Positions 5,678-11,896 of a stretch of DNA of 64,000 nucleotides are shown here, in pieces. A program made the position numbers and the translations under genes. The notes under the pieces were generated by a model. The model did no database searches and had not been told where the DNA came from. It saw only the letters and a program-made list of their open reading frames with translations. Position 1 is the first letter of the stretch; every line of letters begins with the position of its first letter. Origin of the DNA: an uncultured Gemmatimonadales bacterium (lineage in GTDB: Bacteria; Gemmatimonadota; Gemmatimonadetes; Palauibacterales; Palauibacteraceae); the NCBI GenBank assembly GCA_963783385.1, contig CAWANJ010000002.1, positions 128,001-192,000 of the forward strand, read 5' to 3'.

Positions 5678-5841
5678 GCGGCGACGAGGACTCGTACGGC
5701 CACCGCGCTGAACGGAGCCCCCGAAAGGTCGATGGCGTCCGCCATGCTACCGGAATTCTTCGGAGCGGCAGGTTCGACGTTCGCAGCGGGGCTCTCATCG
5801 AATGCTGGGGTGCTACACAGGGATAATCTACGATTCGCTGC

Positions 5842-5871
5842 TTGACAAAAAAGGTAAATGTGAGCGAGATT
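5842..5871 (+). promoter_or_regulatory. Putative promoter of the peptide cassette
   Basis: Perfect TTGACA at 5842-5847 followed by an A-tract; weak -10 (GAGATT, 5866-5871) at 18 nt; 50 nt before ATG 5922. Confidence 0.45.
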
Positions 5872-5921
5872 CCGATTCCAGCGGTTACGGAGTTTGTGGA
5901 ATCGTCGCTCGGGATGAGACC

Positions 5922-6140
5922 ATGCCCAAGCGCTTGATCGTAGCCATCTCCGCCGCGATTGTGACCATTTCGGGGTCGGCCTACCTGTTGTCGCCAGCTA
6001 ACGTCCAGGCCGCTACCGCATCTGCCGGGCTGTGCGACCAGAGTTGCCATTCGAATTCTGATTGCAGCGCTGATCCCCTATGCTCCAAGTGCTCAGCGAA
6101 TCCAAAGTCTCCCGCAAATGGCTCGTGTGGTGGCACATGA
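5922..6140 (+). CDS. Secreted 72-aa precursor of a six-cysteine (knottin-like) peptide
   Basis: MPKRLIVAISAAIVTISGSAYLLSPANVQA signal peptide (basic N-end, hydrophobic core, VQA/ASA cleavage), then C-x3-C-x5-C-x5-C-x2-C-x11-C-GGT. Confidence 0.75.
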   Translation: MPKRLIVAISAAIVTISGSAYLLSPANVQAATASAGLCDQSCHSNSDCSADPLCSKCSANPKSPANGSCGGT

Positions 6141-6165
6141 ACCTGACACATTTCCGGTCGCTGAC

Positions 6166-6209
6166 GAGTTGACCGGACCGGAGGTCGGGTCGGCTCATTC
6201 ACTTTCTGT
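6166..6209 (+). terminator. Stem-loop with pyrimidine-rich tail after the peptide gene (weak terminator or mRNA stabiliser)
   Basis: GAGTTGACC (6166-6174) pairs with GGTCGGCTC (6188-6196), followed by ATTCACTTTCTGT. Confidence 0.4.
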
Positions 6210-6221
6210 CGGGACGGTCGG

Positions 6222-6899
6222 GTGGGCCGGTCGGATCAATTTCAGAACGTAGCCGTGGGCATCCTCGCCGCGTGCGCGGTGGTCACGACGGCCCTGGTTG
6301 CGCGCCACGAACTGACCTCTCGTCGGCGAGCTCCCGAGAATCCAGGTCGGTACCGAGTCGATGCCCGGACGCAGAAGACCGCGCAGGACGGGGGGCACCT
6401 GATCGGCAATCGACAAGCCGCCTTGAAGATCGTGGAGTTTGCGGATCTGGAGTGTCCATTCTGCGCCCGAGCTCAATCCGTTCTGGACTCGGTGATGGAC
6501 GCCTTCCACGGACGGGTGGCCGTAATCTTCCGCCACGATCCCATTTCCGATCTCCATCCCCACGCCTTCCGCGCAGCTCTTTCCTCGGAATGCGCCGGGG
6601 AGCAGCATCGATTTCCTGCTTTTGTGCGCGAGATCTACGCCATCCAGGATTCTCTCGGGCTCATCCCCCGGGTCCAGCTTGCAGCGAGGGCGGGGGTCCG
6701 GGACACCATCCGATTCAAATCGTGCCTCGACAATGGGCGATATGAGGATGTGATTGCCAGGGACGCGCGTGCGGCGAGGCGCCTCGGCGTCTCAGGCACA
6801 CCGACGTTTCTGATCGGTGAGACCGTCCAGAGAGGTCTGCCCCCCGATAGCGTTCTGGTCCATGAGATACGAACTGCGCTGGGGGAGCGATCGCACTGA
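6222..6899 (+). CDS. DsbA/BdbD-family thiol-disulfide oxidoreductase with N-terminal membrane anchor
   Basis: IVEFADLECPFC active site, FRHDPI..LHPHA, GVSGTPTFLIG cis-Pro loop; N-terminal hydrophobic helix. Confidence 0.9.
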   Translation: MGRSDQFQNVAVGILAACAVVTTALVARHELTSRRRAPENPGRYRVDARTQKTAQDGGHLIGNRQAALKIVEFADLECPFCARAQSVLDSVMDAFHGRVAVIFRHDPISDLHPHAFRAALSSECAGEQHRFPAFVREIYAIQDSLGLIPRVQLAARAGVRDTIRFKSCLDNGRYEDVIARDARAARRLGVSGTPTFLIGETVQRGLPPDSVLVHEIRTALGERSH

Positions 6900-6978
6900 G
6901 ATACAGCCTCGTTCCCCTGCCCCGTCACGTACGGACGCCCGGGTCGGAGCCGCGGAAGCTCCTGCGGTCGGGACCGCG

Positions 6979-8170
6979 ATGGGCTCCACGGGTCTTCCGG
7001 ACGAAACGGCGATCTTCCTGTCTGATCTTCTTCCTCCTCCTGACCGGTCTGGCCGCTTGTGGCCGGCGCCCATCCCGGCCGACGACTCGGTTCGACCCCG
7101 ACGTGCCGCGAAGACTCTTGACAGCCAGGGCGGGGTGCCATGACTGCCTCGATGTGACGATCGTCGCGACCCTGGGGCGCGCGGGCGATTCGGTCTCGAT
7201 CGACGCCACGGCTCCTTTTGGGGCGTCGTGTTCGGTGCTCCATCTCGACAACGGCCACTTCGTGGTCAGCGGTCTCGTCGGTGGCGGGGAACTGGGGGTC
7301 TACGACGCACAGGGGAAGTGGCTTCGGGCCGTGGGACGCCCCGGTCAGGGGCCCGGGGAGTTCCAACGTCAACTGGACCTGGCTACGGTGGCCGGCGATA
7401 CGTTCGAAGTGTTGGACAGGTTCAATCTGCGTGCGACCAAAGCCACGTCGGCGGGCGAGTTCCTGGGCTCCTTCAGAACGCCCGAAGCTGCCAACGGACT
7501 CATCGCCATGGGCCGCGACCGGTGGCTGGTCCTGGAGACCCCGGGAAGCGCGGCTGTGCGAGACTCCCTGTTCGTCCTAGTCGACGATTCCGGAGCCGTC
7601 GTGCGCGCCTTCGGCGCGTCCTCGCCCGCTCTCGCCGATCTGGATGCATGGACGGCCGCCAGGGGCCGGGACGGGGACCTGTTCACCGCCAGCGTGTGGC
7701 ATTACGAGATTTATCACTGGACGAACCGGGGGAAGCTCGAGGAGACTTTCCTGCGCCACGCTCCGTGGTTTCCCGACGCACAGGTGGTAACTCCTCGGAG
7801 GCTGGACCGCATGTTCGGGGAGCTTCCACCCGTGGATTACCTGGAGCACATCGCGGTCGACGATCGCGGTCGACTCTGGACCTTCTCGCTGATTCCCGAT
7901 CCCGATTGGACGCCCGGCCCGACCCACTTCACGTCGCCGGCTTGGACTCGACACACTTTTGACACGATGGTGGAGGTCGTGGATGTCCGGGACCCCGTGA
8001 GAGCGAGGGTGGTCGCCTCGCGACGCTTCGATTCCGTCGTAGCTCCCATCTGTGGAAGGGATCTGCTCCTGTACCGGCTGATAGAAACAGCTGTGGGTGA
8101 CACTCGAGCCGAAATCTTGGCACCGCGAGTGACGGTCGCTGGCCACACTCCCGAGACAGACCGGAACTGA
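6979..8170 (+). CDS. Six-bladed beta-propeller (NHL/TolB-like) lipoprotein; start uncertain (probable extra G near ATG 6979)
   Basis: ORF 7103..8170 has VYDAQGKWLRAVGRPGQGPGEF and IAVDDRGRLW blade motifs. The same frame is open upstream and encodes KRRSSCLIFFLLLTGLAAC (lipobox Cys 7058-7060). Confidence 0.7.
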
Positions 8171-8223
8171 AAGGCCCGCCCCGTGCCTCCACGCACAGGC
8201 TGACTCCCGGCCTCCGCGTGACG

Positions 8224-8255
8224 CTCCGGTTCCCCGGCCGGCGGGGGAATCGGGG
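8224..8255. terminator. GC-rich hairpin between convergent genes
   Basis: CTCCGGTTCCCC (8224-8235) pairs with GGGGAATCGGGG (8244-8255), immediately past the carbonic anhydrase stop. Confidence 0.45.
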
Positions 8256-8256
8256 C

Positions 8257-8877
8257 TCAGTCGACCGCTACCGGATGGAAGCGGCCACTCTCCAGGTCGA
8301 GGGCGTCCACGCGGCCTTCCTCGAGGATGTAGTGCCACCCGTGCAGCGCCAGATCACCGGCCTCCGTACGTTCCCGCACGATGGGGTATTCGGCCAGTCG
8401 CCCCAGCTGCAGCGCGATGCTGCGCCGTTCGGTCTCCCGCAGCGTATCCTCGTCGGGAGCGCCGTCCCCGGCGGGCAGCGCCGCGGGCCGGGCCAGCCCG
8501 AGCCAGCGCTCCAGGTTGGGCGCCGGCACGTCCGGGGGCTCGTACAGGGCGCGCACCGCGCCGCAGTGACTGTGGCCGCACACCACAATGTCCCGGACGC
8601 CCAGCACCGCGACCGCGTACTCAATGGCGGCGGCCGCCTCGTGCTCACCGACCTCGGGGTCGTGAGGCGGCACGAGCGCGCCCACGTTGCGGGACACGAA
8701 CAGGTCGCCCGGCCCCGAGTCGGTCAGGAGGTCGGGGAGCACGCGGGAGTCCGAGCAGCCGATGAACAGGGTGCCCGGGCGCTGCCCCGCCGCCACCAGC
8801 TCGCGGAAGTGCTCCCGGTAGCCGGGGAACGCCTCCCTGTGGAAACGCTGCAAGCCCCGGAGGAGGCTGTCGGACAT
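8257..8877 (-). CDS. Beta-class carbonic anhydrase
   Basis: GCSDSRV, GDLFVSRNVG, AIEYAV, CGHSHCGA zinc ligands, LHGWHY. Confidence 0.93.
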   Translation of the reverse strand: MSDSLLRGLQRFHREAFPGYREHFRELVAAGQRPGTLFIGCSDSRVLPDLLTDSGPGDLFVSRNVGALVPPHDPEVGEHEAAAAIEYAVAVLGVRDIVVCGHSHCGAVRALYEPPDVPAPNLERWLGLARPAALPAGDGAPDEDTLRETERRSIALQLGRLAEYPIVRERTEAGDLALHGWHYILEEGRVDALDLESGRFHPVAVD

Positions 8878-9225
8878 GCTCCGACCTCGCGTCTCTGGGA
8901 TCCTCGTCGAACGGGCGACGTAGGATAGCGGCATCGGGTCGCCGTGCGAAGGCGGGGGGGCACGGCCCTCCGCCTCGGCCCTCGCACGCCGAACATCGCG
9001 GCCGGCCGGAGCCGACGGCCGCCGCCGACAGGCGCCCCGGTCCGGGATCCGGGGCGTGCGCGCGCGCCCGTCGCGCCGCTACCTTCCGGACGGCGGCGCC
9101 CGCACGCTTCCTGCACCCGGCAGGACACGCGCGGGCGCCGCGGTGTACGGAGAAGGCGGCGGCGTGCGAGGGATGCCGGACGGGGCCCGGGAGCCGAAGC
9201 GACCACGCAAGCCCACGAGAGGGGA

Positions 9226-11892
<2,667 letters not shown>

Positions 11893-11896
<4 letters not shown>

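What the first reader, a model, noticed from the sequence alone, without database searches (positions are those of the whole stretch)
5922..6140. Bacterial peptide with the cysteine framework of the potato carboxypeptidase inhibitor knottin
Seen: mature core CDQSCHSNSDCSADPLCSKCSANPKSPANGSCGGT = C-x3-C-x5-C-x5-C-x2-C-x11-C-G. Known (recalled sequence): potato carboxypeptidase inhibitor (MEROPS I37) core CNKPCKTHDDCSGAWFCQACWNSARTCG = C-x3-C-x5-C-x5-C-x2-C-x6-C-G. The first four loop lengths are identical, and DCS and the final CG are shared. Knottins are described mainly from eukaryotes and viruses. Inference: an inhibitor cystine knot fold (C1-C4, C2-C5, C3-C6) in a bacterium. The tail (GGT) is shorter than the inhibitory GPYVG tail of PCI, so the function may differ, and short Cys patterns can converge by chance.
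Basis: partly seen in the sequence, partly recalled or inferred. Interest (0 to 1): 0.8.

Follow-up and report, generated by a model that had tools for sequence, protein, structure and literature searches.

The report
Bacterial knottin-like peptide with folding cassette
This bacterium carries a real gene for a small six-cysteine peptide, likely exported and predicted to fold into the same knot as potato and spider mini-proteins; it sits in a swappable three-gene cassette with an enzyme that likely forms its disulfide bonds and a propeller protein that it would bind, and it lacks the parts the potato peptide uses to block carboxypeptidase.

Summary
The gene is real: 72 aa, signal-like leader, cysteine spacing 3-5-5-2-11. 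Its first four loops equal those of potato carboxypeptidase inhibitor (PCI; 3-5-5-2-6, confirmed in PMC5877539). It opens a low-GC cassette (peptide, DsbA-like oxidoreductase, six-bladed propeller lipoprotein) between recX and carbonic anhydrase. A paralogue sits in the same genome, and a congener has the empty site. I found 19 related peptides, all beside a DsbA or propeller gene. With a family alignment AlphaFold gave pLDDT 78. All 7 structures at Z>=2 among 48,161 chains are knottin-type, but scores are low (Z<=3.2) and disulfide pairing could not be read. The PCI likeness is lineage-specific: 3 of 15 members hit PF02977, below its cut-off, and the inhibitory tail and aromatic residues are missing. 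So: a likely knottin fold, not a PCI member, probably convergent. Bacterial knottins are already listed from sequence (KNOTTIN 2018; Gao 2013); I found no paper on this family or cassette. This scan noted the cassette and the paralogue before, on other DNA. Most likely the folded peptide is the ligand of its own propeller lipoprotein; this is untested.

The parts
5842..5847 (+). Perfect -35-like hexamer TTGACA, with no consensus -10 partner; weak promoter candidate
   Evidence: Sequence; the promoter scan found no complete site; the paralogue has TTGACA followed by a TAAAAT-like hexamer
5911..5918 (+). Ribosome-binding site of the peptide gene
   Evidence: GGGATGAG here, GGGAGGAG in the sister species before the same ATG
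5922..6011 (+). Leader, aa 1-30: basic N-region, hydrophobic core, predicted signal-peptidase site after VQA
   Evidence: Hydropathy; family leaders share M-K-R and a Pro; SignalP was not available, so the cleavage site is inferred
6012..6140 (+). Predicted mature 42-aa peptide; six-Cys core at aa 38-69 (6033-6128), spacing 3-5-5-2-11, about 4.0 kDa if oxidised, pI 5.3, no aromatic residue
6222..6899 (+). DsbA-like thioredoxin-fold oxidoreductase with CPFC site and N-terminal hydrophobic anchor
   Evidence: Pfam Thioredoxin_4 E 1.9e-20; best PDB match a DsbA, E 1.8e-17; alignment
6896..8170 (+). Six-bladed (NHL-like) beta-propeller lipoprotein; lipobox LAAC with Cys at 7058; start codon unresolved (CTG at 6896 is the candidate; the GTG at 7103 lies behind the lipobox)
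   Evidence: weak DUF5128; the profile hits NHL propellers in the PDB
5680..8250 (.). Whole low-GC cassette between recX (ends 5677) and a convergent beta-carbonic anhydrase (8257-8934, minus); approximate ends
   Evidence: GC 0.54-0.69 in nearly all 200-base windows against 0.70-0.82 in most flanking ones; GC3 0.65-0.75 against 0.89-0.95 for recX, carbonic anhydrase and recA; empty site in congener G002

Best explanation
The gene encodes a 72-residue precursor that is likely exported, likely cut after Ala30, and predicted to fold into a three-disulfide inhibitor cystine knot with the help of the DsbA-like enzyme encoded next to it, after which it would bind the propeller lipoprotein of the same cassette. 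Shown: the gene, its conservation, the three-gene cassette, its insertion at a site empty in a congener, and a family of 19 such peptides, all beside a DsbA or propeller gene. Predicted: the knot (about 0.7 on its own). Inferred: export, oxidation by the cassette DsbA (recycled by the genome's VKOR), and peptide-propeller binding. I commit to a polymorphic effector and cognate-binder pair: the peptide is a secreted protein-binding ligand used in competition or kin recognition, and the propeller is the producer's matching receptor or immunity protein. The exact match to PCI loops arose by drift within a knottin-compatible framework, not by transfer from plants.
For: Fold: family alignment with six aligned Cys and an invariant Gly two residues before Cys6. 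Model pLDDT 78 with short strands at Cys2, Cys5 and Cys6 and a helical turn before Cys3. 7 of 48,161 chains reach Z>=2 and all are knottin-type (the knottin status of four entries is recalled). PCI aligns at 2.3 A over 34 residues, Z 3.2. Disulfides, not metal: 64 of 67 distinct peptides found beside cassette-type DsbA genes have an even Cys count; the genome has a VKOR gene next to another DsbA-like gene. Pairing with the propeller: 6 of the 7 propellers most like this one among 87 loci lie at family-peptide loci, while the DsbAs of four of those loci rank 81-84 of 87. Selecting on the propeller alone, 4 of 19 new loci have a Cys-rich peptide upstream and all 4 are of this family; 3 of them lie 120-180 nt before the propeller with no DsbA in the 6 kb fetched. 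Mobility and polymorphism: the cassette is 98-100% identical to a sister species' copy, whose recX and carbonic anhydrase proteins are 91% and 88% identical; empty site in G002; many other Cys frameworks in like cassettes.
Against: No disulfide map: the folding tool returns no coordinates. Structural scores are all low (Foldseek none at E<=0.001; Z<=3.2), pTM is 0.46, and AlphaFold may simply recall PCI-like knottins from the Cys pattern. The full precursor with 3 sequences gave pLDDT 51. The 15-member core profile finds nothing in the PDB at E<=10. 15 of 19 close propellers have no Cys-rich peptide within about 1.1-1.5 kb upstream (two lie on short contigs), so the propeller does not need a linked peptide; this fits orphan immunity or receptor genes but equally a propeller with a job of its own. 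The DsbA ranks are biased by how loci were selected, and many loci are cut at 1.5 kb. No target, no regulator and no transporter lie in the cassette. There are no expression data.
Confidence: 0.45

Rival explanations
1. It is a functional metallocarboxypeptidase inhibitor of the PCI type (MEROPS I37).
For: First four loops identical to PCI; PF02977 E 2-6e-4; PCI and PCI-like chains are the top structural rows; the genome has 4 M14 peptidase hits.
Against: PCI inhibits with its C-terminal tail and aromatic secondary sites (PMC4695807 passage). Here the tail is GGT, the paralogue's is a single Phe, the mature part has no aromatic residue, and family tails run from 1 to 10 residues with no shared motif. 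The score is below the Pfam cut-off; 12 of 15 members do not hit; an unrelated family scored E 4.4e-4 for another cassette peptide in the 67-peptide control. No peptidase gene lies in the cassette.
Confidence: 0.06
2. It is a knottin that acts as a built-in inhibitor or specificity cap of the propeller, which is an enzyme or binding protein with its own substrate; no role between cells.
For: The minimal unit is peptide plus propeller at 3 loci; orphan propellers are common (15 of 19); sponge knottins inhibit bacterial sialidase (PMC13418204 passages), a six-bladed propeller enzyme (fold recalled).
Against: No catalytic family is recognisable in the propeller: only NHL-type matches. High framework turnover and horizontal exchange fit conflict systems better.
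Confidence: 0.2
3. It is a disulfide-bonded mini-protein with another, unknotted connectivity; the knottin look is a coincidence of Cys spacing.
For: The same kind of cassette carries many unrelated frameworks: 22 of 30 six-Cys peptides do not fit the ICK pattern. Structural scores are low. Three relatives carry one or two extra Cys before the core.
Against: Short loop 4, five-residue loop 2 and G-x-C are kept across 14 distinct cores. Every Z>=2 neighbour is knottin-type. The only eukaryotic small-toxin or inhibitor Pfam hits among 67 peptides fall on 4 of the 8 with ICK spacing.
Confidence: 0.2
4. The cysteines bind a metal (periplasmic chelator or metallochaperone) instead of pairing.
For: A CxxC and a nearby His are present; cores are acidic (12 of 14 negative); weak hits to zinc-binding families for single members.
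Against: Export-type leader, adjacent DsbA, even Cys counts (64 of 67); the CxxC becomes CxC or CxxxC in two members; the His is not conserved.
Confidence: 0.07

Closest known systems
Potato carboxypeptidase inhibitor family (Pfam PF02977, MEROPS I37; PDB 7EQZ chain I, 6JIC, tomato 2HLG)
   Same: Secreted six-Cys mini-protein; loops 1-4 of 3-5-5-2; D-C-S at Cys3 and C-G at Cys6; model superposes on PCI at 2.3 A over 34 residues.
   Different: Loop 5 has 11 residues, not 6; three-residue tail without Pro-Tyr-Val; no aromatic residues; below the Pfam cut-off; 12 of 15 relatives show no match; encoded with its own DsbA and a propeller lipoprotein.
Previously noted bacterial ICK sequences: KrICK (Ktedonobacter racemifer) and HoHP-ICKD (Haliangium ochraceum), PMC3694633; the 'bacterial knottins' family of KNOTTIN, PMC5753296
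   Same: KrICK is also a signal peptide plus one ICK domain; known from sequence and homology models only (passages).
   Different: Those resemble scorpion ICK toxins and are isolated examples; the passages I read mention no folding enzyme, partner gene or family. I could not compare their sequences with this family.
Bacterial defensin-like peptides (actinomycesin and homologues, PMC8819291, abstract start only)
   Same: A disulfide scaffold first known from eukaryotes turning up as a secreted bacterial peptide.
   Different: Another fold (CS-alpha-beta) and antimicrobial; this family is mostly acidic.
Bacteriocin loci with a dedicated thiol-disulfide oxidoreductase (e.g. sublancin with BdbB; recalled, no call)
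   Same: Peptide gene beside its own disulfide-forming enzyme.
   Different: Signal-peptide-type leader rather than a double-glycine leader, no ABC transporter or modifying enzyme in the cassette, and a propeller lipoprotein as third gene.

Membership tests
PCI family (PF02977 / I37) | Cys spacing 3-5-5-2 in loops 1-4 | tested here: met
PCI family (PF02977 / I37) | Score at or above the Pfam gathering cut-off (25 bits) | tested here: not met
   19.9 bits whole, 21.4 bits core
PCI family (PF02977 / I37) | C-terminal tail that plugs the active site (five residues after the last Cys in PCI, with Pro-Tyr-Val) | tested here: not met
   Tail GGT; paralogue F; family tails 1-10 aa, unconserved
PCI family (PF02977 / I37) | Aromatic residues as secondary binding site | tested here: not met
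   No F, W or Y in the mature peptide
PCI family (PF02977 / I37) | Inhibits M14 carboxypeptidases | not testable with these tools
   Needs an assay
Inhibitor cystine knot (knottin) fold | Domain under 50 aa with six Cys in an oxidising compartment | tested here: met
   42-aa mature part, six Cys, export-type leader, DsbA next door; export itself is inferred
Inhibitor cystine knot (knottin) fold | Loop lengths within the ICK consensus (pattern recalled, typed into) | tested here: met
   3-5-5-2-11 fits; 8 of 30 six-Cys cassette peptides fit against 1.1 after loop shuffling, but 7 of the 8 are kin
Inhibitor cystine knot (knottin) fold | Small antiparallel sheet with a hairpin carrying Cys5 and Cys6; superposes on solved knottins | tested here: inconclusive
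   Model pLDDT 78 has this pattern; all neighbours are knottin-type but Z 2.0-3.2, none significant by Foldseek
Inhibitor cystine knot (knottin) fold | Disulfides I-IV, II-V, III-VI with the third threading the ring | not testable with these tools
   The folding tool gives no coordinates or pairings
Bacteriocin loci with a dedicated oxidoreductase (features recalled) | Double-glycine leader and peptidase-ABC exporter in the locus | tested here: not met
   Hydrophobic signal-type leader; the cassette holds only peptide, DsbA and propeller
Bacteriocin loci with a dedicated oxidoreductase (features recalled) | Antibacterial activity | not testable with these tools
   Needs an assay; 12 of 14 cores are net negative, unlike membrane-lytic peptides

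The most novel reading that the evidence does not exclude
These bacteria run a venom-like mini-protein factory: swappable cassettes export disulfide-locked peptides of many frameworks, among them a true knottin family with its own folding enzyme and a matching propeller receptor or immunity lipoprotein. It would be the first bacterial cystine knot that comes as a family with a genetic system, giving a direct test of whether the knot arose in bacteria independently of, or before, plant and animal knottins.
Probability: 0.35. Interest if true: 0.82.

Novelty: new variant of a known kind. Interest (0 to 1): 0.58.

Why it matters
Knottins are drug scaffolds and venom components, and as of the 2018 KNOTTIN paper bacterial ones had no experimental structure. 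A 42-residue peptide with 18 natural relatives, a dedicated folding enzyme and a candidate partner makes two questions cheap to test: do bacteria make real cystine knots, and what do the peptide-DsbA-propeller cassettes do. A DsbA-like enzyme evolved to fold knottins could also help recombinant production of such peptides.

Tried and rejected
Global protein searches with the single peptide returned only itself and a 503-aa repeat protein with another Cys pattern; family profiles returned 3 and 9 unnamed proteins. Two weak genome hits (G011, G007) lie on the opposite strand of other genes and were dropped; G536 matched the family profile but has another framework and no DsbA in its locus, and was dropped. 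AlphaFold on the whole precursor was uninformative. The ESM Atlas gave only leads under 0.9. No NCBIfam family, no plasmid match, no viral fold match at E<=0.001; viral contigs could not be scanned with the family alignment. No RNA holder was listed. No terminal repeats or target-site duplication were seen at the cassette ends. No DsbB was found in this 92% complete genome. A peptide-propeller complex prediction was never run because the queue was full, so binding stays open. Transfer from plants is rejected as unlikely: most relatives are less PCI-like and the family profile does not find PCI. Literature searches found no paper on this family or cassette; subscription papers and preprint supplements are not covered.

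Full report
Observation. Window 5922-6140(+) encodes 72 aa: a basic-hydrophobic leader and a core with six Cys spaced 3-5-5-2-11, ending GGT. The gene is real. A six-frame scan of the genome (46,346 segments) finds the 3-5-5-2 pattern twice, here and at C9:752640-752855(-), a paralogue at 56% identity with all Cys kept. Over the 32 core codons the two have 15 identical, 9 synonymous-only and 8 replacement codons; the 94% identical orthologue in congener G003 has its 4 replacements in the leader and 3 silent changes in the mature part. That orthologue has a frameshifting indel upstream and a perfect ribosome-binding site, so the 112-aa database version has the wrong start. Cleavage after Ala30 is my inference from hydropathy; SignalP was not available.

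Context. The peptide is the first gene of a 2.6-kb low-GC block (GC3 0.65-0.75 against 0.89-0.95 for recX, carbonic anhydrase and recA). Next come a DsbA-like protein (6222-6899, CPFC, N-terminal anchor) and an NHL-like six-bladed propeller that ends at 8170 and has a lipobox at 7058. The C9 paralogue has the same three genes. Congener G002 has recX followed directly by carbonic anhydrase, the empty site. A sister-species contig (L007) is 98-100% identical across 6000-8200, while its recX and carbonic anhydrase proteins are 91% and 88% identical, which points to recent exchange of the cassette. The genome has a VKOR gene beside another DsbA-like gene and no DsbB hit, so an oxidation pathway is present. 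The label Gemmatimonadota comes from earlier scan notes; no call of mine names the taxon.

Family. Searching relatives with the cassette DsbA, 82 of 84 loci examined held it and 60 of the 82 had a small leader-bearing Cys-rich ORF on the same strand (some loci are duplicates and a few ORFs are probably false). The 67 distinct peptides have 4, 6, 8 or 10 Cys in 64 cases and very diverse spacings. One subgroup aligns with our peptide; a profile search of 401 genomes hit 11, adding six intact members and two frameshifted ones, one of them in this genome. The 15 aligned members (14 distinct cores, 12 genomes) share an M-K-R leader with a Pro, spacing C-x3/6-C-x5(6,9)-C-x3/7-C-x2(1,3)-C-x5/12-C, and a Gly two residues before the last Cys. 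All 15 lie just upstream of a DsbA gene. Four more were found through the propeller (below). None matches NCBIfam, and none of 8 database proteins looked up carries a name.

Is it a knot? With three sequences and the leader, AlphaFold failed (pLDDT 51). With the 15-member core alignment it gave pLDDT 78 (five models 71-78, pTM 0.46), with strands at Cys2, Cys5 and Cys6 and a short helix before Cys3. Foldseek found nothing at E<=0.001, but 13 of the 15 rows shown are small disulfide peptides: engineered cystine-knot peptides, PCI, the tomato peptide, two spider toxins and one engineered binder. An unbiased alignment to 48,161 chains gave 7 at Z>=2 (best 2.9): a cystine-knot peptide, a Lycium carboxypeptidase inhibitor, Ep-AMP1, Magi4, Evasin-3, the tomato peptide and Tbo-IT2 (that four of these are knottins is recalled). 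PCI aligns at Z 3.2, 2.3 A, 34 residues. Against this: such Z values are far below the tool's typical chance best for larger models, the model may echo knottins in AlphaFold's training set, the family profile finds no PDB sequence at E<=10, and pairings could not be read. 8 of 30 six-Cys cassette peptides fit a recalled ICK pattern against 1.1 after shuffling loop order (0 of 20,000 shuffles reach 8), but 7 of the 8 are kin, so this is not a probability. I put the knot at about 0.7.

Is it a PCI? No. PF02977 scores 19.9 bits (whole) and 21.4 (core) against a cut-off of 25, and only this peptide, its orthologue and its paralogue hit it, 3 of 15. In a control of 67 cassette peptides, one unrelated family reached E 4.4e-4, about the same level. 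Among 12 more distant members loop 3 is 3, 4 or 7 residues, never 5, so the exact match is one lineage's variant. PCI plugs the active site with its tail and uses aromatic residues as a second site (PMC4695807, passage); this peptide has a GGT tail and no aromatic residue, and family tails vary from 1 to 10 residues. The genome has four M14 hits, none in the cassette.

How it most likely works. Export and oxidation by the neighbouring DsbA are inferred from anatomy and even Cys counts. The partner is probably the propeller. Among 87 loci, 6 of the 7 propellers closest to ours sit at family-peptide loci (the seventh has a partial DsbA and no peptide found), whereas four of those loci have DsbAs ranking 81-84 of 87; this ranking is biased because the other loci were chosen by DsbA score and many are cut short. 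An independent search with the propeller profile in 401 genomes gave 19 new loci above 250 bits; 4 have a Cys-rich peptide upstream, all of this family, 3 of them directly before the propeller without DsbA and with one or two extra Cys; 15 have none. So peptide type follows propeller type, DsbA is an accessory, and orphan propellers are common. With horizontal exchange, decay and framework turnover, this best fits a polymorphic secreted ligand with a cognate receptor or immunity lipoprotein. The cores are mostly acidic (12 of 14), which argues for protein binding rather than membrane lysis. A knottin acting on a six-bladed propeller has a loose precedent in sponge knottins that inhibit bacterial sialidase (PMC13418204, passages; the sialidase fold is recalled). 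Binding is untested: the complex prediction could not be run.

Novelty. KNOTTIN 2018 already lists a bacterial knottin family without experimental structure (PMC5753296, passages); Gao 2013 modelled two bacterial ICK sequences (PMC3694633, passages); a 2026 review says cystine knots occur in all kingdoms and names no bacterial example in that section (PMC13352647, section 14). A knottin-like sequence in a bacterium is therefore not new in itself. Seven searches (listings and abstract starts only) found no paper on this family or on the peptide-DsbA-propeller cassette; subscription journals and preprint supplements were out of reach. This scan has noted the cassette in several other genomes and the C9 paralogue in this one; those are unchecked AI notes and not support.

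Verdict. Observation confirmed; interpretation partly supported. New variant of a known kind, interest 0.58.

Noticed in passing
G000:C2:65651-68955 (minus; L150): A third, broken copy of the cassette in this genome: frameshifted peptide of the L043 type and a split propeller, separated by a duplicated stretch of another gene. Could be decay or assembly error.
   Followed up: partly
window 9227-11896: alaS appears split over two frames (ORFs 8944-10569 and 9761-11896), and the C9 propeller has an internal stop; the assembly may carry indel errors, which weakens any pseudogene call in this genome.
   Followed up: no
L071:1162-1359 (+), G289: A cassette peptide with the C-C-CC-C-C spacing 6-5-0-3-9 typical of animal ICK peptides (pattern recalled), weak Pfam Conotoxin_I2 hit E 0.018; a second, unrelated knottin candidate.
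   Followed up: partly
L001:9060-10190 (+), G000:C9: A transposase-like reading frame with a stop lies directly upstream of the paralogous cassette's promoter; the label is from its look, no family search.
   Followed up: no
L003:3-470 (+), G003: The congener's recA carries an insertion ending in an intein-like C-terminal motif just before CAPPFK, absent from the window's recA (motif recalled).
   Followed up: no
L199:3549-3905 (+), G370: A family core with two extra Cys at the end of a 119-aa ORF with several hydrophobic stretches; possibly a membrane-tethered form or a wrong start.
   Followed up: no
L040, L041, L042 (G036); L099, L100, L130; L134: Other recurring peptide frameworks in like cassettes, e.g. 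2-9-6-4-x-3-3, 4-10-7-10-5 and four-Cys 15-9-11 in tandem copies; none passes a Pfam cut-off.
   Followed up: partly
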